From the NCBI GenBank assembly GCA_038145705.1, contig JAYQQF010000016.1:6675-70674 (forward strand): a stretch of 64,000 bases of DNA, given 5' to 3'. Source of the stretch: Alphaproteobacteria bacterium. GTDB lineage: Bacteria > Pseudomonadota > Alphaproteobacteria > SMXQ01. Shown piece after piece: positions 4,998 through 21,618 of this stretch. Positions within the stretch are counted from its first letter, which is position 1. The number at the start of each line of letters is the position of its first letter. The translations under genes were made by a program, and so were the position numbers. The notes below the pieces were generated by a model. The model worked only from the letters and a program-made list of their open reading frames with translations, did no database searches and had not been told where the DNA came from.

Positions 4998-5001
4998 AGC
5001 A

Positions 5002-7125: not shown

Positions 7126-7285
7126 GCGATCGCGCCGTGACTCTCTCGCAAGCGCGCTGTGTGGTCGTGACGCCCCGACGTTCTGGGGCTGCTTGATGTT
7201 CTCAATCTCGCCTTGCTTGTGGTTTTTTCGTCCTCAGCGGCACAAATTTCTGCTGATGCGCGGAACATCCTCCTGATACTATCTG

Positions 7286-7361
7286 AAAAATTCGCCGTAT
7301 TTTCGCTGTTATCGGGGAGTTTCGCCGGAGAGCGGTTTGCCTTGGACTGGCAGCACCGCCA
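7286..7361. other. Degenerate mobile-element terminus / att-like motif
   Basis: AAAATTCGCCGTATTTTCGCTGTTATCGGGGAGTTT followed by a tRNA-3'-like tail ending ACCGCCA; lies at a composition boundary. Recognised from recollection only. Confidence 0.4.
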
Positions 7362-7400
7362 CTTCCCTCACGCCCATGTGCCCGGATGGGTAAAACGGCT

Positions 7401-7937: not shown

Positions 7938-8028
7938 TGGGGGGAGCCTTTTCTGCTTTGATGGTTGTACGGCAAGGATATCGGACCTAATGTCGATAAA
8001 ATCCGAAAAAGCAGACTAAAACACCGAT

Positions 8029-8781: not shown

Positions 8782-8862
8782 CAACTGTCCCGATTTTCGG
8801 AAAGATCGTTTATGGTCAGCCGAAACCGGCGAAGCCTCATTCAGGCAGGGAGATCAGAGTTC

Positions 8863-10008
8863 ATGTCGCTTAACAAAATCCGCACCGACGTCGTTGGCAG
8901 CCTGCTGCGCCCCGCTTATCTGAAGGAAGGCCGCGAAAGGCTCGACGCAGGCAAGCTGTCGGCCCCCGAATTCAAGGCGCTGGAAGAGCGCGCCGTGGCC
9001 GAGGCCGTGGACCTTCAGGAATCGGTCGGCCTCGACGTGCTGACCGATGGCGAGATGCGCCGCCTCAATTTCCAGGAAAGCTTCGGCTCCGCCGTCGAAG
9101 GCTTCGATGCCGCGGCGACCACCCTTCGCACCTATGAACGCCGCGTCGAGGGCTCGGCCCCCGGCCAGCGCTGGGAAATTCCGGAACTGGGCGGCCACGG
9201 CACCGCGGTGTCCCACCGCCGTCCGGTGGTCAGCCGCCTGAAGCTGGTCCGCAACATCCCGCTCGACGAATACAAGGCGGTGGCGAAAATCGCCAGGACC
9301 CCGGCCAAGGTCTCGCTGATCGGACCCGACCGTATTTCCCAGCGCTTCGCCTATGAAAACTCGACCGCCGTCTACAAGGGCATGGATGATTTCCTCGCCG
9401 ACGTCGTCGCCATCGAGCGCACCATCGTCGGCAGCCTCGTCGATGCGGGATGCAAATACGTGCATATCGACGCGCCGGGCTTCACGGCCTATGTCGATGA
9501 GCCGTCGATGGAGGAGATGCGCAAGCGCGGCGAAGACCCGATGAAGAATTTCGCGCGTTCGCTCAAGGCCGAAGCCGACGTGATCAAGGGCTTCCCCGGC
9601 GTGACTTTCGGCATCCATCTGTGCCGCGGCAACCAGCGCAGCATGTGGCACCGCGAGGGCACCTATGACGCCATCGCCGAGCGGCTGTTCAACGAACTGC
9701 CCCACGACCGTTTCCTGCTCGAATACGACACGCCGCGCGCCGGCAGCTTCGCGCCGCTGCGCTTCATGCCGAAGGGAAAGATAGTCGTGCTCGGCCTGAT
9801 CACGACCAAGACGCCGACCCTTGAAAAGGTCGACGACCTGCGCGCGCGGATCGACGAGGCCGCGAAGTACATTCCGCTCGACCAGCTTGCGCTGAGCCCG
9901 CAGTGCGGCTTCGCGTCGGATGTCATCGGCAACCTCCTCAGTCCCGATGACCAGAAGCGCAAGCTCGAGGTCATGGTCGAGACGGCCCGCAAGGTCTGGC
10001 AGAACTAG
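8863..10008 (+). CDS. Cobalamin-independent methionine synthase II family protein (single barrel)
   Basis: VVGSLLRP, TDGEMRR, Zn ligands HLCRGN and SPQCGF. Confidence 0.9.
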   Translation: MSLNKIRTDVVGSLLRPAYLKEGRERLDAGKLSAPEFKALEERAVAEAVDLQESVGLDVLTDGEMRRLNFQESFGSAVEGFDAAATTLRTYERRVEGSAPGQRWEIPELGGHGTAVSHRRPVVSRLKLVRNIPLDEYKAVAKIARTPAKVSLIGPDRISQRFAYENSTAVYKGMDDFLADVVAIERTIVGSLVDAGCKYVHIDAPGFTAYVDEPSMEEMRKRGEDPMKNFARSLKAEADVIKGFPGVTFGIHLCRGNQRSMWHREGTYDAIAERLFNELPHDRFLLEYDTPRAGSFAPLRFMPKGKIVVLGLITTKTPTLEKVDDLRARIDEAAKYIPLDQLALSPQCGFASDVIGNLLSPDDQKRKLEVMVETARKVWQN

Positions 10009-10147
10009 GCTATATGCCGCGCACCCGCCGGAGGTTTATGACTAAAGGCCGGTAGGCATACGCTGGTATTCGAGCCTGAAGGGGCCCGGACAGGACCGCC
10101 CTGCGGTCTTGATTGACGGCGCGCTTCGCGTCGGGGAATCATGTCCC

Positions 10148-10993
10148 ATGATCCGGTCATCCCAAAGCCTGCTTGCGCTCGTGGCCTTCGCCCTCGTTCT
10201 GGGCGGGCCGTTTTGCCGTGTCTTGGCGGCCCCCACGAATCTTGAGAAGGAAATCGGCGTTTTGCGCGCGAGCAATGCCGCGTGGCAGCGCGAGCTGGCG
10301 TCCTTTCGCGGCGCTCGGGCAAAGGGTGCGTTGTCGGGAGGCGAGCTCAACGATTATGCGGCTTTCGTGGCGGGCCTGCGCGCCAATGTTCTGGTGCAGT
10401 GCGAAAAGGTGCGGGGCCTCGGCGGCGAGGCTGCCCTTGGAGAATTTGACTGCAAGATTCCCACCGATGAGCAGGCTGTCGCTGTCGTCGTGACCGGTCA
10501 GGGCGTGCAAACGGAAGAAGAAAAGATCCGCGCCCGCGAACGCCGCTTGCAGGATCTCGAGACGAGCATCGACGAAGAACTGCTGCGCCGTCAGCAGGAA
10601 ATTCGCGAGATGGTGAAGCCGAACGGCGGCGGTGGTGGCGGAGGCGGCGCTTCCGCCGGCAGTTCGGGGCAGGGCGCTGCATCATCGTCCGGCTCGAAGG
10701 AATCGGGCGCGGCTTCGTCGGGCAGCGCTTCGGCATCGTCGGCCGGCGTCAAATGGAGCGATCCCGGCGCCAGCGGCACGGCGGGCACCAGATCGCCGTC
10801 GAACGGCGCCTCGGCTCCGCCGTCCTCGGCCCCGCGGCCCAATGCAGCGAAGCGGGAAGAAAACAGGGATCCGTCAAACGAAGATGACGTCGTCGCGCGC
10901 CAGTTGCGTGAAGCCGCCGAGCGGGAAACCGATCCCGTTCTCAAACAAAAGCTGATGGAAGAATATCGCAAGTATAAGGAGGCAAAACGATGA
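10148..10993 (+). CDS. Secreted protein with coiled coil, Gly/Ser/Pro linker and C-terminal helical domain
   Basis: Signal peptide; GGGGGGGG/SSG linker; C-terminal DDVVARQLREAAERETDP motif; ATGA overlap with next gene. Confidence 0.8.
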   Translation: MIRSSQSLLALVAFALVLGGPFCRVLAAPTNLEKEIGVLRASNAAWQRELASFRGARAKGALSGGELNDYAAFVAGLRANVLVQCEKVRGLGGEAALGEFDCKIPTDEQAVAVVVTGQGVQTEEEKIRARERRLQDLETSIDEELLRRQQEIREMVKPNGGGGGGGGASAGSSGQGAASSSGSKESGAASSGSASASSAGVKWSDPGASGTAGTRSPSNGASAPPSSAPRPNAAKREENRDPSNEDDVVARQLREAAERETDPVLKQKLMEEYRKYKEAKR

Positions 10994-12324
10994 GCCTGAC
11001 GTATCGCGTCTTTCGGTCCGCTGCGGTCGTTTTGCTGGCAGCGTCTCTTGGAGCCTGTGCCCAAACCTATGCAAAACGCACGGTCACCGAAACGGAAGCG
11101 CCGCTCGATCAGTCGGGGGCCAAGGCCCCGGGCGGTGAGCCGCTGTCGGTTCGCATAGAAGCCTTCGACCCGGGCAAGCTGCCGGAGGATCCGAACCACG
11201 CCAAGGGGCTTTCGCCGGAAATAAGAAATGCGGAAGCCTACTATGTGCCGGTGCAGATCAAGAACACCATGCAGCGTTCGGGCTATTGGGGTCCAGTGCG
11301 CGTGGTGCCCAAGGGCAGCCGCGAGGGCGAAGTTATCGTCACGGGGAGGATTGAGGAGTCCGATGGCGAAATCCTCAAGCTTTCCATCAGCGTGAAGGAT
11401 GCGACGGGGCGGCCCTGGTTTACCAAAACCTACGAGCGGGTCATTGATGAAGCCCAATACCGCAACGCATCCGGCGTCGATCCGTTTCAGGGAATCTACA
11501 ACGAGATCGCCAATGATATCGCGGCACACCGCAAAAAACTTCCGTCCGGCGATACCGTTGCCGTTCGGCAGGTTGCCGAGTTGCGCTTCGGCGCGGATTT
11601 CGCCCCCGACGTTTTCGGCGCCTATCTGAAAAAACCGGCTGAAAAGGACTCCAAGCCCGACGGGGATGACACCCTCAAGAAGCTCGTGGCGCTGTTTGAC
11701 AGCAATCCGACCCCTGATGACGCGACCCTCTACAAGGTCCGGCGCCTGCCGTCGCCGAACGATCCCATGATTGCACGGGTGAACCGGATTCGCGCGCGTG
11801 AGGAATACCTGATCGATACGCTGGACCAGCAATACGACGGGCTTGCGAGGAATCTTGCTCCCGCATATACGCGCTGGCGCGAGTCCCGGCTGAAGGAAAT
11901 CAATGCCGTTCGCGCCGTCGATGACGCCAAAGCCAAGCAGCAGAGCGAGGCGATCGCCATAGGCGTTCTTGGCGCGCTTGCGGGGGCGGCCGTCGGCTCG
12001 CAGAGGAATTGCTATTCGTGTCAGACGACCGGTGCCGTTATCGCCGGCGCGGCCATAGCGGTTGCGGTGAAGCATGCGGTGGACGCCTCCGACCAGGCCT
12101 CTGCCGAGACGAAACTGCGCATGACGACGTTGGTCGAAATCGGCAAGTCGATCTCCGACGATGTCAAGCCGGTGGTCGTCGAGGTCGAGGGAAGGACTGT
12201 CGAGCTCAAGGGCAGCGTCGATCAGAAATTCGATCAATGGCGCCGGGTTCTGAAGGAACTATCCGAGCAGGAAAACGGTCCGCAGCAGCCGGCGCCTGCC
12301 CCGGCCCCCAAACGCGACGTTTGA
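10990..12324 (+). CDS. Lipoprotein with glycine-zipper-like hairpin
   Basis: Lipobox LGA-C; hydrophobic hairpin AIAIGVLGALAGAAVG...CYSC...GAVIAGAAIAVAV. Confidence 0.85.
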   Translation: MSLTYRVFRSAAVVLLAASLGACAQTYAKRTVTETEAPLDQSGAKAPGGEPLSVRIEAFDPGKLPEDPNHAKGLSPEIRNAEAYYVPVQIKNTMQRSGYWGPVRVVPKGSREGEVIVTGRIEESDGEILKLSISVKDATGRPWFTKTYERVIDEAQYRNASGVDPFQGIYNEIANDIAAHRKKLPSGDTVAVRQVAELRFGADFAPDVFGAYLKKPAEKDSKPDGDDTLKKLVALFDSNPTPDDATLYKVRRLPSPNDPMIARVNRIRAREEYLIDTLDQQYDGLARNLAPAYTRWRESRLKEINAVRAVDDAKAKQQSEAIAIGVLGALAGAAVGSQRNCYSCQTTGAVIAGAAIAVAVKHAVDASDQASAETKLRMTTLVEIGKSISDDVKPVVVEVEGRTVELKGSVDQKFDQWRRVLKELSEQENGPQQPAPAPAPKRDV

Positions 12325-12355
12325 GGGATTCCCCTATCCGGTACGAGCGCTCGTC

Positions 12356-13828
12356 ATGGTAAGGCCGCCTGCAAAACCGCTCCGCGCTGCGATACCGGCT
12401 GGCCGCGCCGCGAGCGGTCACGACCGTCTCAAGTTCATTTTGGGCGGTGTATTCGCGGTGCTCGTCGTTGTCGCGCTGGCCGTGGTGTTTCTGTTGCCGG
12501 GCAAAATGACGCACTCGCCCGCGGCGTCCGCCATGCCCGGATCGACCGCGCCGGTGTCCCCCGCCGCGGCCCTGCCCCAGGACTTCGCCGACAAGCCGGC
12601 TGCCGACAAGCTGCGCGCCGAAGCGTTGCAGGCAGACGTCAAACTCAAGGGTGAGGGGGTTGGCGTCTGGGGCGCGGAAAAGGTCGATACCGATCTTGCC
12701 TCGGCCGAAGCGCGGCTCAAGTCCGCCAATGAACTTTACGACCAGAAGAAATTCACGGCGTCGCTCGCCGCCTTTCGCGAGAGTATAGAACTTTACGGCA
12801 GGCTCGAGGCCAGCAAGCCGGAGCGCCTGCGCCGCGCCGTGCAGGCCGGTCGCACTGCATATGATGCCTTTGATGCGGCCCGCGCGACCGCGCATTACGA
12901 ATTGGCGCTGCTGCTCGACCCGGCCAATCCGGAGGCGCAAGCGGGAAAGGATCGCGCCGCGAAGCTGCCCGCGGTCCTCGCGGGCATTGCCGCGGGCAAG
13001 GCCAAGGAGAGCGAAGGCGATCTCGACAGTGCGTATGAAGCTTATGTCAGGGTTTCCGGTCTTGACCCGGCCTATGTGCCGGTTAAGGCCGAAATCGAGC
13101 GCCTGGGGAAGATGATCGGGGATCGTGATTATCAGGCCGCGGTATCCCGGACATTGGCGTTGATCGACCAGAAGAATTTTACTGATGCGCGCGTTACCCT
13201 GAAGCAGGCATTGGCGATTCGCCCGGCGGCACCGGAACTCAGGGAAATATCGGGGCGCATCGCCGCAGGTGTTCAGGCGGAGACCCTTGATCGTCTCCGG
13301 CGCAGCGGCGCTTCATTCGAGCGGCAGGAAAAATGGGTCGATGCCGTTGCGGCATATGCCAAGGCGCTTTCGCTTGATGCGACGGCCAGCTTTGCCGCGG
13401 CGGGCCGCGCCCGCGCCCAGGGCATGGCCGACCTGCATGCGGCCATCGACCGTTACCTGGCCGAGCCGGCGCGCCTGCGTTCGCCTGATCCGCTCGCCCA
13501 TGCCCGCGGGGTTCTCGGACAGGCCAAGGCGGTTGCAGGGGCAGGCCCCGTGCTTTCCGGAAAACTGCGCCGCCTCGAGGCGGCCATTGCCGCCCAGGGC
13601 AGAGAGGTTCCGGTCACGCTTCGGTCGGATGCCAAAACCACTGTTGCGATCACCCGGGTCGGGCGCTTCGGCGCTTTCACCTCCCGCGTGGTCAAGCTTC
13701 ATCCGGGCACCTATACGGCGGTAGGATCGCGGGACGGTTATCGCGATGTGCGTGTCGAGTTCCGGGTTGGACCTGACGACGCCAACGTGACCATCTCGAT
13801 CCAGTGCACGGAGCCAATCGCCCAATGA
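12356..13828 (+). CDS. Membrane-anchored TPR-like protein with C-terminal PEGA-like domain
   Basis: One N-terminal TM, Ala-rich helical repeats (YELALLLDPANPEA), C-terminal LHPGTYTAVGSRDGYRD. Confidence 0.85.
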   Translation: MVRPPAKPLRAAIPAGRAASGHDRLKFILGGVFAVLVVVALAVVFLLPGKMTHSPAASAMPGSTAPVSPAAALPQDFADKPAADKLRAEALQADVKLKGEGVGVWGAEKVDTDLASAEARLKSANELYDQKKFTASLAAFRESIELYGRLEASKPERLRRAVQAGRTAYDAFDAARATAHYELALLLDPANPEAQAGKDRAAKLPAVLAGIAAGKAKESEGDLDSAYEAYVRVSGLDPAYVPVKAEIERLGKMIGDRDYQAAVSRTLALIDQKNFTDARVTLKQALAIRPAAPELREISGRIAAGVQAETLDRLRRSGASFERQEKWVDAVAAYAKALSLDATASFAAAGRARAQGMADLHAAIDRYLAEPARLRSPDPLAHARGVLGQAKAVAGAGPVLSGKLRRLEAAIAAQGREVPVTLRSDAKTTVAITRVGRFGAFTSRVVKLHPGTYTAVGSRDGYRDVRVEFRVGPDDANVTISIQCTEPIAQ

Positions 13829-16269
13829 CGCTTTGTTTCGTCGACGGAGAAAAAACCAGCAATTTCAGCGCCGAGGATTTTCCCCTTGCGCTCGGCCTGT
13901 CGTCGGACCGGTCTCTCGCTGTCGGGGTCGAGGCCGAAACAGCGCCGGTGGCCTGGATTACCCTGCATGAGGGTCGCTTTTCGCTGCAGTCCGAGCGGAC
14001 CCGCATTCCTTTCTCCTATGACGGCGCGGTCCCGGCCGGTGCAGTGTGGCTCGCCGAAGGCGGTGAAATCGAGATCGCGGGGCGGGTCATCGATGTTTCG
14101 GTTTCCGGCGGGGCCTGCCGCCTTGCGCTGCGCCCCGCTGTCGCGGCGGAGAGTGTCGAGACGGTCGCCGAGGCGCCTGAAGCCGCGGCCGATACGGATG
14201 ACATGAAATTCGAACGCTTCGGCACGAAATTCGGCGAATCGTCCCGGGCCGCCGGTTTTGGCTTGTCGAAATCGGCGAAAATTTCCCTCGGCCTTTTTGC
14301 GTCGCTCCTCCTTGCGGTCGTGTACGTTCTCGTCAGTTCGCCGGTCTATCTGCAGATCGTCCCCGCCCCGCAGAAAGCCTCGCTTTCCGGTTTTCCGCCG
14401 CCGGTACCGGTTCTGGATCGTTATCTTGCCTTGCCGGGAACCTACACCGTGACCGCTTCGGCGCCGGGGTTCAAACCTCTCGAGGAGAAGGTGACGGTCG
14501 GCTTCGGCCAGTCGCCGACCTTCGCATTCCAGCTCAGGATCCTTCCAGGGCTGCTCTCGGTCACGACCCCGCCGATCGAGGGCGCGACGATCCTTGTCGA
14601 TGGCAAGGAAGCCGGGAAAAGCCCGGCCGGGGATATCGAGGTCGATGCGGGAAAGCGCGAAATACGCATCGTTTCGGAGCGTTACCTGCCCGAAACCCGG
14701 ATGATCGACGTGCGGGGGCGCGGTGAACGCCAGGCCCTCGACATTCCGCTTTTGCCCGGTTGGGGCACGGTCGAGGTGCAGTCGGTGCCGGCCCAGGCGA
14801 CGGTGCGCCTTGGCGGCAAGCCGGTCGGCGAAACGCCGCTTACTTTCCAGCCGCTCCAGGGCGTTCATGAACTCGAGATATCGAAGAGCGGCTGGAAGAC
14901 GGTCCGCCAGCGCGTCGAAATAAAGGCCGGGCAGACCGCTGCACTGGCCCCGATCAGGATGGAAAAAATCGACGGCACGATCGATCTTTCGACCTCGCCG
15001 GCAGAAGCGACGATCACGGTCGATGGTCAGTTCAAGGGTCGTTCGCCGCTTGCGTTTCCCCTCGTGTCCGATCGTGATTATGTCCTCAGGATCACCAAGG
15101 CGGGCTATATCGGCGTGACGCGCACCGTGCGTGTCGAAGGCGACAAGACGATGCCGCTTTCGGTCGCCCTCAAGCCGGAGCTTGGCACCGTTTTCATTGC
15201 GGCGGTCCCCGCCGATGCGACGCTTTCGATCAATGGCACGCAGCGGGGCAGGGCCACGCAGCGGCTTTCTTTGCAAACCCTGCCGCAGGCCATTGTCGTT
15301 TCCAAGCCGGGGTACGTGCCTTTTCGCACGACGGTGACGCCGCACGCGGGCGTGTCGCGCACGATCAATGTAGCGCTCAAGACGGTGGGTCAGGACCTTC
15401 TGGACAAGGATGCCAAGGGGGTGCGTACGAAGGGCGGCCAGCGTATCCGCCTGATGTTTCTCGATGGCCCGCAGCGGCTCATGCTTGGCGCGCCGCGCCG
15501 CGATCCCGGCCGCCGATCCAACGAACCCGAGCACCTGGTGGAGCTCACCCGCTCGTTCTGGATCAGCGAAAAAGAAGTGACCAATACCGAGTTCCGCAAG
15601 TTCCGGCCTTCGCATGCATCGGGGACCTATCAGGGCAAGAGCCTCAACGATGCCGCCCAGCCGGTCGTCAATGTGTCCTGGGATGACGCGGCGCGCTACG
15701 CCAATTGGCTCAGCGGGCAGGAAAAGCTGGCACCTGCCTACCGCGAATCGGGTGGCCGCATGGTGCCGGTGCTGCCGGTCACCAACGGCTACCGACTGCC
15801 CAGCGAGGCGGAATGGGAATACGTCGCCCGTTACGACGCCGGACGTCGTTCTCTGGCGCAGCCCCGCAGGTTTCCCTGGGGCGATTCGATGCCGCCCGCC
15901 GCGCGCAGCGGCAATTACGCCGATGACGCGCTGCCGCGCCTGCCCTTTGCCATCGGGGGGTACGTCGATGGTTATTCCGTGACCGCGCCGGTCGGAAAGT
16001 TCCCCGCCAATGTCGCCGGCCTGTACGATCTCGGTGGCAACGTCGCCGAATGGTGCCATGATTACTACGACGTGAACTTGAGCGCTTCGGCGTCACCCAA
16101 GCGCGATCCGCTTGGTCCCGACAGCGGACGGTTTCATGTCATCAAGGGTGCGAGCTGGCGGAGCGGTACCATCACCGATCTGCGCCTTAGCTACAGGGAC
16201 TATGCGGAAAAGCCGCGTGACGATATCGGATTCAGGATCGTGCGTTATGCCGAAATTCCGGGAAAGTAA
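13825..16269 (+). CDS. PEGA-repeat / FGE-sulfatase (SUMF1/PvdO)-fold membrane protein
   Basis: TM, several PEGA repeats (STSPAEATITVDG...GRSP...KAGY), C-terminal RLPSEAEWEY, GLYDLGGNVAEW, IGFR. ATGA overlap at 13825. Confidence 0.92.
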   Translation: MTLCFVDGEKTSNFSAEDFPLALGLSSDRSLAVGVEAETAPVAWITLHEGRFSLQSERTRIPFSYDGAVPAGAVWLAEGGEIEIAGRVIDVSVSGGACRLALRPAVAAESVETVAEAPEAAADTDDMKFERFGTKFGESSRAAGFGLSKSAKISLGLFASLLLAVVYVLVSSPVYLQIVPAPQKASLSGFPPPVPVLDRYLALPGTYTVTASAPGFKPLEEKVTVGFGQSPTFAFQLRILPGLLSVTTPPIEGATILVDGKEAGKSPAGDIEVDAGKREIRIVSERYLPETRMIDVRGRGERQALDIPLLPGWGTVEVQSVPAQATVRLGGKPVGETPLTFQPLQGVHELEISKSGWKTVRQRVEIKAGQTAALAPIRMEKIDGTIDLSTSPAEATITVDGQFKGRSPLAFPLVSDRDYVLRITKAGYIGVTRTVRVEGDKTMPLSVALKPELGTVFIAAVPADATLSINGTQRGRATQRLSLQTLPQAIVVSKPGYVPFRTTVTPHAGVSRTINVALKTVGQDLLDKDAKGVRTKGGQRIRLMFLDGPQRLMLGAPRRDPGRRSNEPEHLVELTRSFWISEKEVTNTEFRKFRPSHASGTYQGKSLNDAAQPVVNVSWDDAARYANWLSGQEKLAPAYRESGGRMVPVLPVTNGYRLPSEAEWEYVARYDAGRRSLAQPRRFPWGDSMPPAARSGNYADDALPRLPFAIGGYVDGYSVTAPVGKFPANVAGLYDLGGNVAEWCHDYYDVNLSASASPKRDPLGPDSGRFHVIKGASWRSGTITDLRLSYRDYAEKPRDDIGFRIVRYAEIPGK

Positions 16270-16489
16270 CAGACGCGGATTCGCGGTCCTGCTTGCCGCG
16301 ATCCTGATGACGGCGGCGCTGCCGGTGCTGGCCGCTGACAAGGCTGTGCCCCCGCCGCCGGGGACCGTCCAGCCGCCGCCTGTCGCGGCCGGCCCCCCCG
16401 GGGCGGCCACGACTTCGCCTGGCCAGACCTTCGTGCCGAGCGAAAAAATATCCGCCGGTACGGCGGTCGCCTTTCCGAACGACATATGA
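16247..16489 (+). CDS. Small secreted Pro-rich protein
   Basis: Signal peptide (VLA-A), PPPP linker, C-terminal FVPSEKISAGTAVAFPNDI; fills the operon gap. Confidence 0.75.
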   Translation: MPKFRESNRRGFAVLLAAILMTAALPVLAADKAVPPPPGTVQPPPVAAGPPGAATTSPGQTFVPSEKISAGTAVAFPNDI

Positions 16490-16498
16490 GAGCCGCCC

Positions 16499-17296
16499 AT
16501 GCGCAAGCTGTTTCCCACGGAATTCGTCGTACAGGTCTTCTCTCTGCTGGTGTCGTTCATCCTCGTGCACGCCGTCTACGTCACGTTGATCCGGCCCAGC
16601 GCCGAGGCGTTCCTTGCCGAGGAGCGCGCCAAGGTGAAGATCGACAAGAGCTATCAGATGCGCCAGTCGGCCTATGTGGTCATGCGCGACTACGAGCAGG
16701 AGGCCTGTCTCGTCCTGATGCTGTGGGCGCTCTCCATCCTCGGCTACAAGACCTACAACATCCGTCGCCAGAGCCAGCAACTCGGCTACGACTTCGTCGG
16801 GCTGCCCGAAGGCACCCCGGTCACCGTCGACAGCGCGCGGCAGACGTCGGCCTTGATCCGCAAGCGGCTGCCTGAAGCCATGCACGATTACCTGCTGCCG
16901 CGCGTGATGCTGGCCGCGATCGATCGCTTTTCCGCGACGCGCAGCGTGCAGGACTGCTCGAGCGTCGTGCACACGGTGTGCGATGCGGAGGCGGAGCGCC
17001 TGGAATCCGATCTTTCCATCATTCGTTATATCGCCTGGGCCATCCCTTCGGTCGGCTTCATCGGAACCGTCCGCGGTATCGGCGATGCGTTGGCGCAGGC
17101 GCATCGCGCGGTCGAAGGAGACATCACCGGCGTAACCGACAGCCTGGGCGTGGCCTTTAATTCCACCTTCGTGGCGTTGCTCATCAGTATCGCGCTGATG
17201 TTCCTCGTGCATCAGGTGCAGTCGATGCAGGAAAAGCTCGTATTGGACACCCGTCGCTATTGCGATGACTGGTTTGTCCGCCGCCTGAAGGTTTAA
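16499..17296 (+). CDS. MotA/TolQ/ExbB proton channel family protein
   Basis: IPSVGFIGTVRGI and LGVAFNSTFVALLIS channel helices; four hydrophobic segments. Confidence 0.92.
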   Translation: MRKLFPTEFVVQVFSLLVSFILVHAVYVTLIRPSAEAFLAEERAKVKIDKSYQMRQSAYVVMRDYEQEACLVLMLWALSILGYKTYNIRRQSQQLGYDFVGLPEGTPVTVDSARQTSALIRKRLPEAMHDYLLPRVMLAAIDRFSATRSVQDCSSVVHTVCDAEAERLESDLSIIRYIAWAIPSVGFIGTVRGIGDALAQAHRAVEGDITGVTDSLGVAFNSTFVALLISIALMFLVHQVQSMQEKLVLDTRRYCDDWFVRRLKV

Positions 17297-17317
17297 CGCC
17301 GGGATCGGGGCTGCGCG

Positions 17318-18412
17318 ATGGCCAAGCGCGATATCTCGCCGATGAGCCTGTCCTTTCTGGACGTGATGTGCTGCGGCTTCGGCGCGATCATTCTGCTGGT
17401 CATGATCATGAACGGCGATGTGCTGAAAAAGCGCGAGCACCGGTATGAAGACCTTCGCGCCGAATTCAAAAGGGTGACCGAGCTCGAAAATCTGGCCCGG
17501 GCCAATCTGGAAAAGCTGCAATCGGATGTACAGGCCGCGGAGCTGCGCGAAGCCGACCTCGAAGTGCAGGCGACGGGTCTGGCCCGCAAGATCGATGAAA
17601 CGAAGCGTCGTTCCGACCAGGCGGCGGCGAAGGCGGCCGCGGCGCAGGATTCCATCCGCAGCCTTGCCCAGCAGAGCGCCGCCATTCAAAGCGCGGTGAC
17701 GGCGCTGCGCGAAAAGAATGCCGAGAAATGGCGCGGCGGGCGCAGCCCTGTTGGCTTCAGCGGCGATGGAGAACGCCAGTACCTGACCGGTCTCAAGCTG
17801 GGTGCCGAACGCACCCTTATTCTTGTCGATTCGTCGGCAAGCATGCTCGACGAAACCGTGGTCAATGTCGTGCGGCGCAAGTTGATGAGTGCCCCGTCGC
17901 GTCAGACCGCGCCCAAGTGGCAGCGGGCGCTGCGCACAACACATTGGCTGCTGTCCAACCTTCGGCCGGGCAAGAAGTTCCAGATCTATGATTTCAGCAC
18001 GGATGCACGGCCTCTGGTCGCGGGTTCGGATGGAACCTGGCTCAGCACCGACGACACGGGAAAATTGACCGCGGCAATCGCGGCCTCGCGGCGGATCGTG
18101 CCCGATGGCGGCACCAGCCTGCATCAGGCGTTTGATGTCATCAGGCGGATGTCGCCCCGCCCCGACAGCGTGATCCTGCTGACCGACGGGCTGGCCACCC
18201 AGGGCAAGTCGCTTTCTCCCCGCGGTGTCGCCACCGTCAAGGATCGCGAGCGTTTTACTTCGGAAGCCATCCGGGACGCCTTGCCGCCCAGCGTGCCGGT
18301 CAACACCCTGCTGTTCCCGATGGAAGGCGATCCGACTGCCGCGGGGGCTTTCTGGCTGCTGGCGATAAAGACCAGGGGCTCGTTTCTGACGCCGGCGAGG
18401 GACTGGCCATGA
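17318..18412 (+). CDS. VWA-domain protein with ExbD/MotB-like N-terminal anchor and coiled coil
   Basis: SFLDVMCCGFGAIILL TM; coiled coil; MIDAS DSSAS...GGT...TDG. Confidence 0.9.
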   Translation: MAKRDISPMSLSFLDVMCCGFGAIILLVMIMNGDVLKKREHRYEDLRAEFKRVTELENLARANLEKLQSDVQAAELREADLEVQATGLARKIDETKRRSDQAAAKAAAAQDSIRSLAQQSAAIQSAVTALREKNAEKWRGGRSPVGFSGDGERQYLTGLKLGAERTLILVDSSASMLDETVVNVVRRKLMSAPSRQTAPKWQRALRTTHWLLSNLRPGKKFQIYDFSTDARPLVAGSDGTWLSTDDTGKLTAAIAASRRIVPDGGTSLHQAFDVIRRMSPRPDSVILLTDGLATQGKSLSPRGVATVKDRERFTSEAIRDALPPSVPVNTLLFPMEGDPTAAGAFWLLAIKTRGSFLTPARDWP

Positions 18413-19410
18413 AGCGGCGCGGGCGTCGGGACATTGAAATCTACAGCATGTCCTTTCTCGATGTGATCTCCTGCGGCTTTGGCGCCGTGATCCTGCTGCT
18501 CGTCGTCTCGCTCGCTTTTGAGCCGCTCAACGTCGAGCGAATTTCCAAGGATCTTCGCGGGGCAATCTCTGAACGCGAATCGGCGCGCAAGGGCCTCGAA
18601 AGCCGGACCCAGGACATCAACCGCCAGCTCGCGGAAAAGCGCCGGAGCCTGGCTGCCCTGCAGGCCAAACTGGACGGTCTCGGTAACGATTGGCAAAAGG
18701 CAACGACGCAGCTCCAGCAAGCGCAGGGACGCGCGGCCGAGAGGTCCAAGATCGAAAGTGAATTACGCCTGGTTCGCCAGAATCTTTCAGACGAGATGCG
18801 GCGGCTTGCGAGCCAGGCCGATAATCGCCTGCCTGATCCCGATGCGATTATCGGGGGCATTCCGGTCGACAGCGAATACATCATCTTCGTGATCGATACC
18901 TCGGGCAGCATGAAAAGCGGCGCCTGGCCGCTGGTGATCAGGAAGGTTGAGGAGGTCCTGAAGGTTTATCCCCGCGTGAAGGGCATTCAGGTAATGAGCG
19001 ATATGGGGACTTACATGTTCCCGTCGTTTGCCGGCATCTGGATTCCTGATACGCCAGCGCGCCGCCAGCTTGTCATCGAACAGATGCGGCGCTGGAATGC
19101 CTTCAGCAATTCAAGCCCGGTCGAAGGAATCGAGGCATCGATCAGGGCCTTCTACAATCCGTCGCGCCCAACGAGCATTTTCGTGTTCGGCGATGATTTC
19201 AACGGGCGCAGCGTCACAAAGGTGGTTGAAACGGTGGCGCGCCTCAATCCGAAAACGGCCAACGGACAATCCCGCGTTCGCATTCATACGTTCGGGTTCC
19301 CGACGCTGATCCGGGTGGCACCTCAGAACATGGTTCGGTTTGCCCACCTGATGCGTTTGCTCGCGGAGCAGAACTCGGGCAGTTTCGTCGGGCTCAACTC
19401 TACGCGTTGA
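18409..19410 (+). CDS. Second VWA-domain protein with ExbD/MotB-like anchor
   Basis: SFLDVISCGFGAVILL TM; coiled coil; MIDAS DTSGS...FGDD; ATGA overlap. Confidence 0.9.
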   Translation: MKRRGRRDIEIYSMSFLDVISCGFGAVILLLVVSLAFEPLNVERISKDLRGAISERESARKGLESRTQDINRQLAEKRRSLAALQAKLDGLGNDWQKATTQLQQAQGRAAERSKIESELRLVRQNLSDEMRRLASQADNRLPDPDAIIGGIPVDSEYIIFVIDTSGSMKSGAWPLVIRKVEEVLKVYPRVKGIQVMSDMGTYMFPSFAGIWIPDTPARRQLVIEQMRRWNAFSNSSPVEGIEASIRAFYNPSRPTSIFVFGDDFNGRSVTKVVETVARLNPKTANGQSRVRIHTFGFPTLIRVAPQNMVRFAHLMRLLAEQNSGSFVGLNSTR

Positions 19411-19419
19411 GCGCTTGCG

Positions 19420-20583
19420 CTAAATGCCGCGCGCGCGCCAGCCGAAGGCAATGGTGGCGAGCGTCAGCAGCACGAGGCAGCCGAACAGCCCGCCCTGAAA
19501 GCCGAGGCCGAGGTAATCGGCCAGCAGCCCGGTGACGAAGGGACCCAGGATCAGCGCCAGGTCCTGCGCGGTGCGCAGCAGGCCCATGACCGGGCCGCGC
19601 TGGTTGGCGGGCGCCTTGTCGGCGGCATAGGCCGTGATGTTGGGAAAAGCCACGCCGCCGCCGATGCCGAACAGGATCGCGCTCAGCCAGATGTATTCGG
19701 GCCGGTCGCCCACCGCCAGCACGGCGCAGGCGGCGAGCGTCAATATGCACGACAGCACGATCACCGGCACGCGCCCGAAGATGCGTGCAAGCCACGGCGT
19801 GAAAAACAGGACGCTCAGGTTGGCGAGCGCGCCGCTGGTCAGGATCAGCCCGATGGTGGCGAGGCTCATCTGGAACTTCGACTGCGCGATCAGCGGCATC
19901 AGGATCCAGTTCGACGCCGTGCGCACGTAGAACAGGCTGAAGCAGATCAGGCCGATGTAAAAGCCTTCGCGCGCCAGCGTCGTCAGGCGCACCGGTGCGG
20001 GCCGTTCGCCCTCCGTTTTTTCCGCGGCCTTGGGCCAGGGCATGAGCGCGAAAGCGAGCACGCCGATCAGCGCGATGATGCCGTTGGCGAAGAACGCGGC
20101 ACCCATGCCCCACAGCCCCGCCGCCAGTCCGCCCATCGCCGGGCCGAGGCTGGTGCCGATGACGTTGGCGCCCTGGTACATCGACATGTCCTGAAGCCGA
20201 CGTCCCGGCTCGCCGAGGTCGGCCACCGACGCCAGCGCCGATGTGATCACGGTGGACGACGCGATGCCCATGAACAGCAGGCAGATGAAGAAGGCGCCGA
20301 CGCTCGATGTCGCGGCCACCCCGAAGGAAGCAATCGCCGTGACGATGCAGCCGAGGCTCATCATCCGCCGCCGCCCGAACTTTTCAGACGCATAACCCGC
20401 CGGAATATTGACCAGCAGCCTGGCACCCCCGAAGGCCGAAACCATCAGCCCGACGACCGCCGCACTCGCGCCGAGGCTGGCGCCATAAACGGCGATCATC
20501 GACCACACCATGCCGTTGCCGAACTGCTTCAGGAACATCAGGGCGAAGAGGACGAGGAGGGGCGTGGACGGCAGTTTCATCAT
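19420..20583 (-). CDS. MFS transporter
   Basis: About 12 TM segments; motif A-like GYASEKFGRRR. Confidence 0.9.
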   Translation of the reverse strand: MMKLPSTPLLVLFALMFLKQFGNGMVWSMIAVYGASLGASAAVVGLMVSAFGGARLLVNIPAGYASEKFGRRRMMSLGCIVTAIASFGVAATSSVGAFFICLLFMGIASSTVITSALASVADLGEPGRRLQDMSMYQGANVIGTSLGPAMGGLAAGLWGMGAAFFANGIIALIGVLAFALMPWPKAAEKTEGERPAPVRLTTLAREGFYIGLICFSLFYVRTASNWILMPLIAQSKFQMSLATIGLILTSGALANLSVLFFTPWLARIFGRVPVIVLSCILTLAACAVLAVGDRPEYIWLSAILFGIGGGVAFPNITAYAADKAPANQRGPVMGLLRTAQDLALILGPFVTGLLADYLGLGFQGGLFGCLVLLTLATIAFGWRARGI

Positions 20584-20687
20584 GTATCTCGAACGCGGCA
20601 CGGGTGGCAGGAAGGCTATGGCGCAATGTAGCATTCCGAATCCGGCGCGGGACTGGTATTCCTGTATCTCTGACAGGCGGGGGTTGC

Positions 20688-21530
20688 ATGGCGAAGGATA
20701 CGGAAAACGGCGTTGAGATCCGGCTCGACCTGCCCTACGGCGGCGGGCCGCGCGGCGATCTTTGCCTCGATGCCTATGTTCCGCCGGGCGTGGGCCCGCA
20801 TCCGGCGCTTCTGTGCCTGCATGGCGGCGCCTGGCAGCACGGTTCGCAAAGACAGTACCAGAGCTGGGGTCCGTGGCTGGCCGAACGCGGCTTTGCCGTG
20901 ATCGCGGTCAACTACCGACTGACCAGCGATGTCAGCCCCGCCTGGCCGGGAGTTTGGGAAGATGTCTGCCGCGCGCTTGACTGGATGCTGGCCCATGCGT
21001 CGGAGCTTCGCATCGATCCCGCGCGCATCGGCACCATCGGCGATTCGGCGGGCGGCCACATGGCGGCGATGCTGTCGCTCGATGAGCGGACGACGAAATT
21101 CATCCGCGCCGTCATCGGCGTCTACGGCATTTACGACCTGCCAGAATGGTGGCGCACGACCCAGCCGCCCCGGCGCACCGACGATCCCGTCGCCAGCCTG
21201 ATGGGCAAGCCGTATGTGGAAATGAAGGACGACTACGAGAACTTCTCGCCATATCACCGGCTGCAGCGGATGGCGGGCAGGCCCGCGGCAAAATACTTCA
21301 TCATCTACGGCGACCAGGATACGCGGGTGCCGCACCCGCAGTCCGAGCGCTTCCTCGCCCTCCTGCGCGAAAAGGGCGCCGATGTCGGCGCCTTGCCCAT
21401 TCCGGGCGCCGGCCATTCGTGGTTCACGTTCGTGGCGGGTGATCCCAAGCGCCGGCGCGTGGACGAAGAGCCCAACGTCACGGTCGCCCCGGCGCTCCTC
21501 GAATTTCTGCGCAAAACGGCGGCTCTTTAA
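20688..21530 (+). CDS. Alpha/beta hydrolase (HSL-like esterase)
   Basis: HGGAW oxyanion motif, GDSAGG nucleophile, GDQD and GAGH triad residues. Confidence 0.92.
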   Translation: MAKDTENGVEIRLDLPYGGGPRGDLCLDAYVPPGVGPHPALLCLHGGAWQHGSQRQYQSWGPWLAERGFAVIAVNYRLTSDVSPAWPGVWEDVCRALDWMLAHASELRIDPARIGTIGDSAGGHMAAMLSLDERTTKFIRAVIGVYGIYDLPEWWRTTQPPRRTDDPVASLMGKPYVEMKDDYENFSPYHRLQRMAGRPAAKYFIIYGDQDTRVPHPQSERFLALLREKGADVGALPIPGAGHSWFTFVAGDPKRRRVDEEPNVTVAPALLEFLRKTAAL

Positions 21531-21618
21531 GCCCGCGCAAGCGTTCCTCTGGACGCCCGCGCGCCGCAGTACGACAATAAGAAAAAACCCGGGCGGGGAA
21601 CAAATCACGGAGGACGCC

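What the first reader, a model, noticed from the sequence alone, without database searches (positions are those of the whole stretch)
10148..19410. Eight-gene ion-motor envelope operon: MotA/TolQ channel, two VWA stator partners, PEGA/FGE-fold protein, lipoprotein
Seen: eight co-oriented genes with ATGA overlaps (10990, 13825, 18409) or gaps of about 30 nt or less, all predicted exported or membrane-bound. Established: MotA/ExbB/TolQ proteins pair with an Asp-bearing single-TM partner as ion-driven motors, and non-catalytic FGE folds occur in envelope machines (GldK/GldJ, TagR). Inference: a trans-envelope PMF-powered machine for secretion, surface motility/adhesion, uptake or defence. It fits none of Ton, Tol-Pal, Mot or Zorya, since no TonB, TolB/Pal or OmpA domain is evident. 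I know of no functional description.
Basis: partly seen in the sequence, partly recalled or inferred. Interest (0 to 1): 0.88.

Follow-up and report, generated by a model that had tools for sequence, protein, structure and literature searches.

The report
Eight-gene vWA-plug envelope motor operon
A widely conserved eight-gene operon encodes an uncharacterised proton-channel motor whose two plug subunits carry adhesion-type (vWA) heads, with a periplasm-spanning scaffold and an outer-membrane lipoprotein; the motor core was noted in print in 2025, but its function is unknown.

Summary
There are eight co-oriented genes at 10148-19410 with ATGA overlaps at 10990, 13825 and 18409, and the stated domains are present.

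The cluster is strongly co-conserved. Of 47 fully flanked related loci, 45 carry all seven sequence-detectable genes and 44 keep the same order. Relatives at about 30% identity also keep the order.

- g6 is a TolQ-like channel with both pore threonines.
- g7 and g8 are full-length paralogs (E 1.8e-22). Each has an Asp-bearing TM helix, a coiled coil and a vWA head with a MIDAS motif, and they are predicted to heterodimerise (0.82 against control 0.09).
- g4 is a cytoplasmic FHA fold, a TM helix, five PEGA domains and a Cys-less FGE/PorK-like domain.
- g2 is a lipoprotein with a PelC/CsgG/TolB-N-like fold.
- g1 and g5 are secreted proteins with conserved C-terminal peptides.

The genome has a separate canonical Tol-Pal system. 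The TolQ-like plus paired "TPH-vWA" core is described computationally in PMC12204202 (2025), function unknown. I found no text covering the accessory genes.

Verdict: a real, uncharacterised 5:2-type envelope machine, and a new variant of a known kind. Interest is moderate to high.

The parts
10148..10993 (+). g1: secreted protein with a signal-peptide-like N-terminus, a helical region, a Gly/Ser/Ala-rich low-complexity stretch and a strongly conserved C-terminal segment of about 35 residues.
   Evidence: Hydropathy. No Pfam family above cut-off. tblastn hits of 55-76% identity confined to the C-terminal ~35 residues in distant loci. Column conservation in 33 sequences.
10990..12324 (+). g2: lipoprotein. 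Residues ~45-190 form an alpha/beta domain of the PelC/CsgG/PqiC/TolB-N type. A long helical hairpin (259-390) has a Gly/Ala-rich tip, followed by a small C-terminal domain.
   Evidence: Invariant Cys23 in 46 of 46 sequences. AF2 pLDDT 83.9, pTM 0.80. Foldseek and VIA matches, Z 9.2-10.3, to an 8z5n chain, 2iqi, PelC 5t0z/5t10, TolB 7mx5 and CsgG-complex 6lqh. No Pfam family. Atlas neighbours are unnamed lipoproteins.
12356..13828 (+). g3: N-terminal TM anchor (residues 23-54), TPR repeats, and a C-terminal beta-sandwich (about residues 418-478).
   Evidence: TPR_1/2/11, E about 1e-7; weak CarboxypepD_reg and Phage_tube_C hits at 418-478. Hydropathy. Conservation of the C-terminal domain.
13825..14139 (+). 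g4 N-terminal cytoplasmic FHA-fold domain (residues 1-105).
   Evidence: AF2 pLDDT about 97 over residues 1-100. The top Foldseek rows are almost all FHA domains. Nearly all of the top 50 VIA rows are named FHA-domain entries, Z 5.4-8.1, covering residues 1-97. hhalign to a bona fide FHA gives probability 71% over 34 columns. Pfam FHA is found in only 2 of 60 orthologs.
14272..14367 (+). g4 single TM segment (residues 150-181).
   Evidence: Hydropathy scan.
14434..15444 (+). g4 periplasmic array of about five PEGA / CarboxypepD_reg-type beta-sandwich domains.
   Evidence: PEGA E 3e-50, 5 stretches. PEGA present in 60 of 60 orthologs.
15487..16245 (+). g4 C-terminal FGE-sulfatase-fold domain with no conserved cysteine (PorK/GldK/TagR-like, presumed non-catalytic).
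   Evidence: FGE-sulfatase E 2.7e-42, present in 60 of 60 orthologs. GldK TIGR03525 scores 102 bits against a cut-off of 350. PDB sequence hits: FGEs at 1e-19, PorK 9mzu/9ots at 6.7e-14. No Cys among invariant or near-invariant columns.
16247..16489 (+). g5: small secreted protein with a signal peptide, a Pro-rich linker and a conserved C-terminal peptide of about 20 residues ending FP-x-DI.
   Evidence: Hydropathy. An equivalent small ORF with the same C-terminal motif was found between g4 and g6 in 50 of 66 loci, one hit (L036) looking spurious. Only 4 of 80 loci are found by tblastn.
16499..17296 (+). g6: MotA/ExbB/TolQ-family channel subunit (presumed pentamer).
   Evidence: PF01618, 52.8 bits. 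Invariant P183, G186, T190 and T223 in 51 sequences. hhalign to the genome's own TolQ (probability 86%, E 4.9e-6) aligns T190 and T223 with TolQ's TM2 and TM3 threonines.
17318..18412 (+). g7: TM helix with Asp15 (residues 8-37), coiled coil (about 39-134), and a vWA head with a complete MIDAS motif (D171, S173, S175, T266, D290).
18409..19410 (+). g8: paralog of g7. TM helix with Asp18 (residues 11-43), coiled coil (about 41-134), and a vWA-like head with D163, S165, S167 and D262 invariant.
   Evidence: Predicted heterodimer with g7.

Best explanation
The locus is a self-contained operon for an additional ion-driven envelope motor of the 5:2 (MotA/ExbB/TolQ) type. It is independent of the cell's Tol-Pal system.

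Shown or strongly indicated:
- g6 is a TolQ-like channel subunit with the pore threonines.
- g7 and g8 are paralogs, each with an Asp-bearing TM helix resembling that of TolR/ExbD at motif level only. They take the place of the missing TolR/ExbD/MotB gene.
- g7 and g8 are predicted to pair through a parallel coiled coil of about 95 residues, capped by a vWA heterodimer with metal-ion (MIDAS) sites.

Inferred:
- Five g6 subunits surround the g7/g8 TM pair. Ion flow through the Asp/Thr site turns the pair relative to the pentamer, so the coiled coil acts as a drive shaft or tether about 14 nm long (my arithmetic: 95 residues at about 0.15 nm each). This carries the vWA heads to the outer part of the periplasm.
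- There the heads engage, through their MIDAS sites, an outer-membrane-proximal assembly. That assembly is built from the FGE/PorK-like domain of g4 (held out on five PEGA domains from the inner membrane) and the g2 lipoprotein, which has a ring-forming PelC/CsgG/TolB-N-type fold.
- g3 (TPR) is an adaptor. The conserved acidic C-terminal peptides of g1 and g5 are candidate ligands.
- The cytoplasmic FHA fold of g4 (or a separate FHA protein in one subclade) couples the machine to a cytoplasmic partner or signal.

My committed guess for the output is mechanical work on an outer-membrane-anchored complex, meaning envelope maintenance or remodelling in the manner of Tol-Pal, with architecture convergent on the type IX PorLM/PorKN core. 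The output itself is unknown.
For: Gene anatomy and domains.

No ExbD, MotB, OmpA, TonB or TolB family in any of the eight proteins at E <= 0.1.

Conserved residues:
- Asp15 is invariant in g7 (15 sequences) and Asp18 near-invariant in g8 (54 sequences).
- T190 and T223 are invariant in g6 (51 sequences) and align to the TM threonines of the genome's own TolQ.
- MIDAS residues are invariant in both vWA proteins.

g7 and g8:
- Full-length paralogy, E 1.8e-22.
- Heterodimer model with ipSAE 0.82 (runs 0.81-0.83) against a best control of 0.09. That mark was reached by 58 of 80 solved complexes and 2 of 110 mismatched pairs. The runs agree in at least 76% of contacts and the partner pLDDT is at least 79. 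The interface follows a heptad pattern over residues 39-134 and 41-134, plus the C-terminal strands of the vWA domains.

Co-conservation:
- 45 of 47 fully flanked loci hold g1-g4 and g6-g8, and 44 of 47 keep the same order and strand.
- The order is kept in four distant genomes at 29-31% g7 identity.
- Nothing outside g1-g8 is conserved across loci, apart from one optional gene.

Other components:
- g4 FHA fold and Cys-less FGE/PorK-like domain.
- g2 lipoprotein fold.
- The genome has a separate tolQ-tolR-tolB locus on another contig.

Independent published reading of the core, with AF3 models placing the Asp pair inside a Thr ring: PMC12204202, section 8.
Against: - No experiment of any kind exists. 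Every contact except g7-g8 is unmodelled here.
- The g7-g8 pass used unrelated globular controls, so a generic coiled-coil attraction or g7/g7 and g8/g8 homodimers are not excluded.
- The g7 TM region matches the genome's TolR only over an 8-column motif (hhalign E 0.22, probability 0.3%).
- The pentamer stoichiometry could not be modelled because of size limits.
- No outer-membrane beta-barrel, cargo, adhesin or peptidoglycan-binding domain is found in the cluster, so the output has no visible handle.
- The FHA module is not universal. The g4 of a distant clade lacks it and has no extra FHA gene.
- g2's outer-membrane location rests on a recalled sorting rule (no Asp at +2).
- The distribution is patchy: 0 of 24 same-family genomes and 18 of 400 sampled phylum genomes. 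This fits an accessory function rather than a core envelope one.
Confidence: 0.6

Rival explanations
1. Envelope-damage or contact sensor rather than a work-producing motor. The FGE-fold domain, the outer-membrane lipoprotein and the vWA heads would sense an outer-membrane state, and the FHA domain would relay it to the cytoplasm. This follows the TagQ/TagR-PpkA-Fha1 threonine-phosphorylation pathway that triggers the H1 type VI system. The channel would serve only as an anchor or gate.
For: The same domain vocabulary is present: an FGE fold, a lipoprotein and FHA. That PpkA's periplasmic domain is vWA-like is recalled, not checked. In PMC13713981, section 13, TagR (FGE-sulfatase superfamily) is modelled against the PpkA periplasmic domain, and a TagR loop deletion abolishes duelling. 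One subclade adds a cytoplasmic FHA protein.
Against: No kinase, phosphatase or other output domain lies in or next to the cluster. The strict conservation of the channel's pore threonines and both TM aspartates argues for ion-coupled function. The FHA domain is missing in some clades. In 49 orthologs the g4 FHA keeps only part of the canonical phosphothreonine-binding pattern, which is recalled as GR...SxxH...NG: near-invariant G24 and N66 are kept, with no conserved Arg or Ser.
Confidence: 0.15
2. A dedicated secretion or surface-motility engine (type IX or Agl-Glt-like). The rotating shaft would drive export or movement of a surface adhesin that is encoded elsewhere in the genome.
For: The g4 FGE domain matches PorK/GldK (TIGR03525 E 3.5e-29; PorK chains 9mzu/9ots E 6.7e-14). 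A 5:2-type motor with a long periplasmic shaft is the type IX logic (recalled). vWA adhesins act in Myxococcus gliding (PMC9946355, abstract seen).
Against: No translocon, outer-membrane barrel, PorL/M/N, Glt or cargo-like gene is conserved beside the cluster in 80 loci. The GldK score is far below the equivalog cut-off (102 against 350). The vWA domains are tethered to the inner membrane, not to the surface.
Confidence: 0.12
3. An anti-phage or other conflict system of the Zorya type, in which a MotA-like channel senses envelope perturbation.
For: Patchy distribution: 0 of 7 same-genus and 0 of 17 other same-family genomes, and 18 of 400 phylum genomes. There is a weak ZorA hit for g6 (PADLOC E 0.0086; NCBIfam ZorA_4 E 0.075).
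Against: There is no nuclease, helicase, NTPase or other effector, and all eight products are envelope proteins. The only other PADLOC matches are weak coiled-coil-region hits to g7 and g8 (best E 0.00032). The cluster is not found on plasmids or phages. Its neighbours here are metabolic and regulatory genes, not a defence island. It appears in most of the matching genomes of one family (15 of the 18 hits fall in a single family), which looks like vertical retention.
Confidence: 0.05

Closest known systems
'TPH-vWA' motor family of Williams-Jones-type survey (PMC12204202, Mol Biol Evol 2025, section 8 and Fig. 4c-d legend; read)
   Same: A tolQ-like gene with no tolR/exbD beside it. Two heterologous TM-tethered vWA genes. 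A conserved TM aspartate predicted to sit in a threonine ring. Found mainly in Proteobacteria. Function unknown.
   Different: The paper's text names only the motor genes. The FHA-PEGA-FGE protein, the lipoprotein, the TPR protein and the two small secreted proteins are not mentioned in the text I read. Its Fig. 4c and supplement, which I could not see, may show them. Orthology to its Idiomarina exemplar was not tested, because no accession is given in the text.
Tol-Pal (TolQ-TolR-TolA-TolB-Pal-CpoB)
   Same: A TolQ-family channel with the same pore threonines. An Asp-bearing TM partner. A TPR protein. A lipoprotein whose N-domain resembles the TolB N-domain fold (Z 9.2 to 7mx5, rmsd 2.8 over 102 residues). 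Likely force delivery towards the outer membrane.
   Different: No TolR periplasmic domain, TolA, TolB beta-propeller or Pal/OmpA domain. The plug subunits are heterodimeric and carry coiled coil plus vWA. The genome has a canonical Tol-Pal system elsewhere.
Type IX secretion / gliding core (PorL/GldL-PorM/GldM motor with PorK/GldK-PorN/GldN ring)
   Same: An inner-membrane ion-driven motor with a dimeric periplasmic shaft, together with an FGE-fold protein near the outer membrane. The g4 FGE domain hits PorK chains at E 6.7e-14.
   Different: The channel is of TolQ type, not GldL. The shaft is a coiled coil plus vWA, not GldM domains. The FGE-fold protein is anchored in the inner membrane through FHA-TM-PEGA and is not a lipoprotein. 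No PorN or translocon is present. The GldK equivalog cut-off is not reached.
ExbB-ExbD-TonB
   Same: MotA_ExbB-family channel (exbB2 TIGR02805 E 3e-4). A TM aspartate in the partner.
   Different: No ExbD periplasmic domain, no TonB and no TonB-dependent receptor in the cluster.
Zorya (ZorAB plus effectors)
   Same: A MotA-like channel in a patchily distributed cluster.
   Different: No ZorB peptidoglycan-binding domain, no long ZorA tail and no ZorC/D/E effectors. PADLOC gives only E 0.0086 for g6.
TagQ-TagR-PpkA-Fha1 threonine phosphorylation pathway of the Pseudomonas H1 type VI system (PMC13713981, section 13)
   Same: An FGE-fold periplasmic protein working with an outer-membrane lipoprotein and the periplasmic domain of an inner-membrane protein, with an FHA domain on the cytoplasmic side.
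   Different: No kinase or phosphatase. The FGE and FHA modules are on one polypeptide. An ion channel is present.
BatA-E / MoxR aerotolerance-type vWA operons
   Same: TM-anchored vWA proteins with MIDAS motifs beside a TPR protein.
   Different: No MoxR ATPase or DUF58 in the cluster. Bat proteins have no Asp-bearing pore helix and no MotA-family partner (comparison recalled; the Bat description was seen in 10.1101/2022.05.06.490989).

Membership tests
MotA/ExbB/TolQ channel family (g6) | Pfam PF01618 above the gathering score | tested here: met
   52.8 bits against a cut-off of 22.9.
MotA/ExbB/TolQ channel family (g6) | Conserved pore-lining threonines in the last two TM helices | tested here: met
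   T190 and T223 are invariant in 51 sequences and align to the corresponding Thr of the genome's own TolQ. Their essentiality in TolQ/ExbB is stated in PMC12204202.
TolQ, ExbB or MotA equivalogs (g6) | NCBIfam equivalog score over the cut-off | tested here: not met
   tolQ 29.1 against 221; exbB2 20.9 against 135; MotA 12.7 against 340.
ExbD/TolR/MotB plug family (g7, g8) | ExbD (PF02472) or MotB/OmpA periplasmic domain | tested here: not met
   No such family at E <= 0.1. hhalign of the g7 profile against the genome's own TolR gives probability 0.3% over 8 columns only.
ExbD/TolR/MotB plug family (g7, g8) | Single N-terminal TM helix carrying a conserved Asp | tested here: met
   D15 is invariant in g7, D18 is conserved in at least 90% of g8 sequences, and both lie in hydrophobic segments.
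vWA domain with MIDAS (g7) | Pfam vWA over the cut-off, plus the DxSxS...T...D motif | tested here: met
   VWA_2 32.1 bits against 27. D171, S173, S175, T266 and D290 are invariant.
vWA domain with MIDAS (g8) | Pfam vWA over the cut-off, plus the DxSxS motif | tested here: inconclusive
   VWA_2 scores 18.9 bits, below the cut-off of 27. However, D163, S165, S167 and D262 are invariant, and the profile matches g7 over 314 columns at E 1.8e-22.
Published TPH-vWA motor family (PMC12204202) | An adjacent tolQ-like gene, no tolR/exbD, a heterologous vWA pair and a TM Asp | tested here: met
   compared with the text read.
Published TPH-vWA motor family (PMC12204202) | Sequence orthology to the paper's Idiomarina exemplar | not testable with these tools
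   No accession is given in the main text, and supplements are closed.
Tol-Pal system | TolA, TolB beta-propeller and Pal (OmpA-like) encoded with the motor | tested here: not met
   None is detected in g1-g8. The TolB_N and ExbD families match only at the separate locus on contig 4.
Formylglycine-generating enzyme (g4 C-terminal domain) | Catalytic cysteine pair after the conserved GGS(F/W) strand (positions recalled) | tested here: not met
   No Cys is among the invariant or near-invariant columns of 60 orthologs. Alignments to solved FGEs end just before that segment.
PorK/GldK (T9SS ring lipoprotein) | TIGR03525 equivalog score, and a lipoprotein signal | tested here: not met
   102.3 bits against a cut-off of 350. 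g4 has an internal TM segment and a cytoplasmic N-domain, not a lipobox.
FHA domain (g4 residues 1-105) | FHA beta-sandwich fold | tested here: met
   The top Foldseek and VIA rows are almost all FHA domains, Z up to 8.1, rmsd about 3.2 over about 90 residues covering the whole domain.
FHA domain (g4 residues 1-105) | Canonical phosphothreonine-binding residues (recalled as GR, SxxH, NG) | tested here: inconclusive
   Only G24, Q55, N66, G79, D80 and P118 are near-invariant in 49 sequences. Pfam FHA is found in 2 of 60 orthologs.
TraT (g2) | Pfam PF05818 over the cut-off | tested here: not met
   13.4 bits against a cut-off of 31. VIA Z is 6.6 to 9e2v. The Atlas's nearest named cluster scores 0.76, which is a lead only.
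Zorya | ZorA and ZorB models plus effector genes | tested here: not met
   The only Zor model hit is a weak ZorA2 match to g6 (E 0.0086). No ZorB or effector model matches, and the other PADLOC hits are weak coiled-coil matches to g7 and g8.

The most novel reading that the evidence does not exclude
This would be a third way of wiring a 5:2 ion motor. The plug subunits themselves form a heterodimeric coiled-coil drive shaft with metal-dependent vWA 'hands'. The shaft turns inside a TolQ-type pentamer that is held still by an FHA-TM-PEGA-FGE scaffold. It works on a PorK-like/PelC-like ring under the outer membrane. The result would be a Tol-type motor convergent on the type IX architecture, powering an as yet unknown outer-membrane process in hundreds of marine and sediment Proteobacteria, including Mariprofundus-type iron oxidisers.
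Probability: 0.3. Interest if true: 0.8.

Novelty: new variant of a known kind. Interest (0 to 1): 0.62.

Why it matters
Ion-driven 5:2 motors power flagella, TonB uptake, Tol-Pal envelope integrity, gliding and type IX secretion, and Zorya defence. Each new wiring has revealed a new way of sending energy across the periplasm.

In this system the plug subunits carry the effector heads directly. It also comes with a fixed set of five further envelope proteins that the literature I could search does not discuss.

The full parts list comprises an FHA-PEGA-FGE scaffold, a PelC/TolB-N-like lipoprotein, a TPR adaptor and two secreted proteins with conserved C-terminal peptides. This turns an orphan motor into a testable machine. 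The candidate ligands for the MIDAS sites, and the candidate ring, are named.

Culturable carriers exist among the named records: Thalassomonas sp., Eilatimonas milleporae, Halioxenophilus sp., Biformimicrobium ophioploci and Mariprofundus spp..

Tried and rejected
- Defence: PADLOC gave only a weak ZorA hit for g6 plus coiled-coil noise. I rejected defence as the main reading.
- Mobile carriage: the g7 protein against plasmid and phage collections gave no match.
- Expression: no RNA holder was listed for the operon, and only DNA runs of estuary or seawater metagenomes were found.
- Operon signals: the promoter and terminator scan was not above shuffles (1 promoter-like site against 2.1 expected; 14 terminator-like sites against 9.3 +/- 2.8). 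This is no evidence either way.
- TolA/TonB-like partner: I looked by eye for an SHLS/His motif in the TM segments of g3 and g4 as printed and saw no His. This was not tested formally.
- g2 as TraT-like: only sub-threshold hints, so I kept it as a lead.
- Literature for a functional study: searches found only PMC12204202 for the core. The two iron and electro-autotroph preprints opened concern other vWA proteins (Bat, CbbO).
- Pentamer model: 5 x g6 plus g7 and g8 exceeds the complex tool's size and chain limits, so it was not attempted.
Homodimers, and vWA against g4, g2, g1 or g5, remain untested.
Supplements of PMC12204202 (its Fig. S1.7, and possibly gene-neighbourhood data behind Fig. 4c) could not be seen and may already show the accessory genes.

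Full report
THE OBSERVATION

The region 10148-19410 holds eight + strand ORFs. Junctions are ATGA overlaps at 10990 (g1/g2), 13825 (g3/g4) and 18409 (g7/g8). The remaining junctions are gaps of 31, 9 and 21 nt, plus a 23-nt overlap of g4 and g5 if g5 uses the ATG at 16247. G+C across the region is 0.625-0.644, like the surrounding sequence.

A hydropathy scan gives an N-terminal hydrophobic segment in g1 and g5 and TM segments in g3, g4, g6, g7 and g8. g2 has a lipobox with a Cys that is invariant in 46 of 46 aligned orthologs.

Pfam and NCBIfam results:
- g6: MotA_ExbB, 52.8 bits.
- g7: VWA_2, 32.1 bits.
- g8: VWA_2, 18.9 bits, below the cut-off.
- g4: PEGA (E 3e-50) plus FGE-sulfatase (E 2.7e-42).
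- g3: TPR repeats.

No ExbD, MotB/OmpA, TonB, TolB or Pal family appears in any of the eight.

IS IT A UNIT?

A g7 search found at least 1970 clusters of proteins of about 363 aa, named only 'hypothetical' or 'VWA domain-containing'.

tblastn with the eight window proteins found the following in those 80 loci: g7 in 80, g8 in 79, g6 in 76, g4 in 69, g3 in 62, g2 in 52, g1 in 49 and g5 in 4. Most misses are contigs that end inside the cluster.

Of the 47 loci with at least 9 kb upstream and the whole downstream part:
- 45 hold all seven sequence-detectable genes.
- 44 have them in the window's order and strand.
- L052 has g6 moved behind g8.
- L058 lacks a detectable g1, and L043 lacks detectable g1 and g2.

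g5 diverges too fast for tblastn. A search for a small signal-peptide ORF between g4 and g6 found one with the same C-terminal peptide (ending FP-x-DI) in 50 of 66 loci, one of them (L036) looking spurious.

Clustering all flanking ORFs showed nothing else conserved, except one optional gene. Four distant genomes, at 29-31% g7 identity, keep the order g1-g2-g3-g4-g6-g7-g8. Protein names returned for close relatives of the L088 gene identify Mariprofundaceae.

Carriers among the named records are Alpha-, Gamma-, Delta-type (Desulfobulbaceae, Desulfuromonadales) and Zeta-type Proteobacteria, mostly marine or sediment MAGs, with a few isolates.

The distribution is patchy:
- 0 of 7 same-genus genomes.
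- 0 of 17 other same-family genomes.
- 1 of 16 same-class genomes.
- 18 of 400 sampled genomes of the phylum, 15 of them in one family.

No plasmid or phage record carries it. Flanking genes in the window are unrelated: AraC-type regulator, MetE-like, MFS transporter, hydrolase and glyoxalase-like genes.

THE MOTOR CORE

g6. In 51 sequences g6 keeps P183, G186, T190 and T223 invariant. Profile comparison with the genome's own TolQ (probability 86%, E 4.9e-6, 151 columns) puts T190 and T223 on TolQ's TM threonines.

The genome has three MotA_ExbB genes but only one ExbD-family gene. That gene sits beside TolQ and TolB on contig 4. The window's channel therefore has no conventional partner anywhere in the genome.

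g7 and g8. These are full-length paralogs (probability 99.5%, E 1.8e-22, 314 columns). Each starts with a TM helix carrying an Asp: D15 is invariant and D18 is at least 90% conserved. The local motif resembles that of the genome's TolR, but only over 8 columns, which is not significant (E 0.22).

Both keep the DxSxS MIDAS motif and the distal Asp. g7 also keeps the Thr.

A two-chain model scored ipSAE 0.82 (runs 0.81, 0.82, 0.83) against a best control of 0.09. That mark was reached by 58 of 80 solved complexes and 2 of 110 mismatched pairs. The runs agree in at least 76% of contacts and the partner pLDDT is at least 79.

The interface is a heptad-spaced parallel coiled coil (g7 39-134 with g8 41-134) plus the C-terminal strands of the two vWA domains. 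This supports pairing but does not prove it. Homodimers were not tested, and the controls were unrelated proteins.

THE ACCESSORY PROTEINS

g4.
- Residues 1-105 fold with pLDDT about 97. The matches are almost exclusively FHA domains: Foldseek TM-target 0.5-0.6, and VIA Z 5.4-8.1 in nearly all of the top 50 rows, covering residues 1-97.
- Sequence models barely see this domain. Pfam FHA appears in 2 of 60 orthologs, and hhalign to a true FHA gives probability 71%.
- After the TM segment (150-181) come about five PEGA-type sandwiches and an FGE-fold domain, present in 60 of 60 orthologs.
- No cysteine is conserved in the 60-sequence alignment. The copper-binding Cys pair of true FGEs (recalled) is therefore absent.
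- Solved relatives include FGEs (1e-19) and PorK (6.7e-14, with longer coverage).

g2.
- AF2 gives pLDDT 83.9 and pTM 0.80.
- Residues ~45-190 match a chain of the flagellar LPHT-ring entry 8z5n (Z 10.3, rmsd 3.4, 131 aligned), DUF330/PqiC-type lipoproteins (10.2), PelC (9.7), TolB N-domain (9.2) and a curli-complex chain (9.1). This fold is common in outer-membrane-associated, often ring-forming lipoproteins.
- The rest is a long helical hairpin with a low-confidence Gly/Ala-rich tip.
- None of the 23 displayed orthologs has Asp after the lipid Cys. By the recalled E. coli rule this suggests outer-membrane sorting.

g3. It is TM-anchored, with TPR repeats and a conserved C-terminal sandwich.

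g1. It is secreted, has a low-complexity stretch, and ends in a highly conserved, largely acidic, helical segment of about 35 residues.

Variation.
- 27 of the 76 loci with both g6 and g7 have an extra gene of about 450 aa between them.
- This gene encodes a cytoplasmic protein with a C-terminal Pfam FHA domain (E 9e-11 and 1.3e-12 in two of three tested).
- All 11 g4 orthologs that lack the N-terminal FHA domain in the 60-sequence set belong to loci of this kind, except the rearranged L052.
- A distant clade has neither FHA form.
- That same subclade also carries three further lipoprotein genes downstream, one of them an M48 peptidase.

HOW IT MOST LIKELY WORKS

Shown:
- The parts list and its conservation.
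- The conserved ion-site residues.
- The g7/g8 paralogy.
- The folds.

Inferred:
- A g6 pentamer encloses the g7/g8 TM pair.
- Ion passage at the Asp/Thr site drives relative rotation.
- The coiled coil, about 14 nm long (95 residues at about 0.15 nm, my arithmetic), carries the vWA heads to the outer periplasm.
- The five PEGA domains place the g4 FGE/PorK-like domain at a similar height.
- The heads bind, through MIDAS, an acidic ligand on g4, g2, g1 or g5.
- The g2 lipoprotein anchors the assembly to the outer membrane.
- The cytoplasmic FHA fold ties the scaffold to the channel's cytoplasmic face or to a signal.

This is the logic of PorLM/PorKN and of Tol-Pal, built from different parts. 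I put 0.6 on this structural and mechanistic reading. The physiological output is open; my leading guess is outer-membrane maintenance or remodelling.

WHAT IS KNOWN

PMC12204202 (2025; section 8 and the Fig. 4 legend read) reports the following:
- TM-tethered vWA genes that co-occur tightly with tolQ homologues without tolR/exbD.
- They occur mostly in heterologous pairs.
- The function is unknown and no phenotypes are reported.

That is the same core. The text does not mention the accessory genes, and I could not see its Fig. 4c or supplements.

Six further literature searches found no functional study. PMC13713981 (section 13 read) gives a precedent for an FGE-fold protein (TagR) acting with a lipoprotein and the periplasmic domain of an inner-membrane protein.

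VERDICT

This is a real, deeply conserved, experimentally untouched envelope machine.
- Its novelty claim is tempered by the 2025 description of the core.
- New here are the complete, co-conserved eight-gene composition, the FHA fold and Cys-less FGE domain of g4, the fold of the lipoprotein, the conserved C-terminal peptides of the two secreted proteins, and the FHA-gene variant.
- Rating: a new variant of a known kind, interest 0.62.

Noticed in passing
L038:8605-9978, L086:8617-9996, L062:8652-9992 (and 24 further loci): A subclade inserts a cytoplasmic gene of about 450 aa between the channel gene and the first vWA gene. It has a C-terminal FHA domain (Pfam E 9e-11 and 1.3e-12 in two of three tested). 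By eye the N-terminal part looks like an actin/Hsp70-type ATPase, which was not tested.
   Followed up: partly
L062:12097-14999, also L051 and L073 downstream of g8: In the same subclade, three more lipoprotein-like genes follow g8. The third is an M48 peptidase (Pfam E 6.9e-35). They may be an extension of the system.
   Followed up: partly
L052 (g6 homolog at 12103-12891, after g8): This is the only fully flanked locus with a rearranged order. The channel gene lies downstream of the two vWA genes.
   Followed up: no
L088-L091; proteins P0123-P0192: The divergent copies that account for 15 of the 18 phylum-sample hits belong, by the names of near-identical proteins, to Mariprofundaceae (iron-oxidising Zetaproteobacteria). 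The operon order is kept there, but the FHA domain is absent and no g5-size ORF of at least 60 aa is seen in L088.
   Followed up: partly
L015:12650-18238: Directly downstream of the cluster in one gammaproteobacterial MAG lies what looks by eye like a MoxR/Bat-type operon (an AAA-like protein followed by membrane proteins). This was not checked with a family search and was not seen in the other loci inspected.
   Followed up: no
G000 contig 3, 67535-67846 (L003): This is a third MotA_ExbB-family gene in the genome (E 3e-14). The genome's only Pfam ExbD match is the TolR on contig 4, so this channel's partner (perhaps a MotB) was not identified.
   Followed up: no
window 4945-10008 and 19420-22431: The flanks are ordinary and unrelated: a Sel1-repeat protein, a LuxR-type response regulator, an AhpC/TSA peroxiredoxin (- strand), an AraC-type regulator and a MetE-like protein upstream; a convergent MFS transporter, an alpha/beta hydrolase and a glyoxalase-fold protein downstream.
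   Followed up: yes
window 10113-10142: The single sigma-70-like match of the region lies immediately upstream of the g1 ATG. That would leave almost no leader. One match is fewer than the 2.1 expected from shuffles.
   Followed up: no
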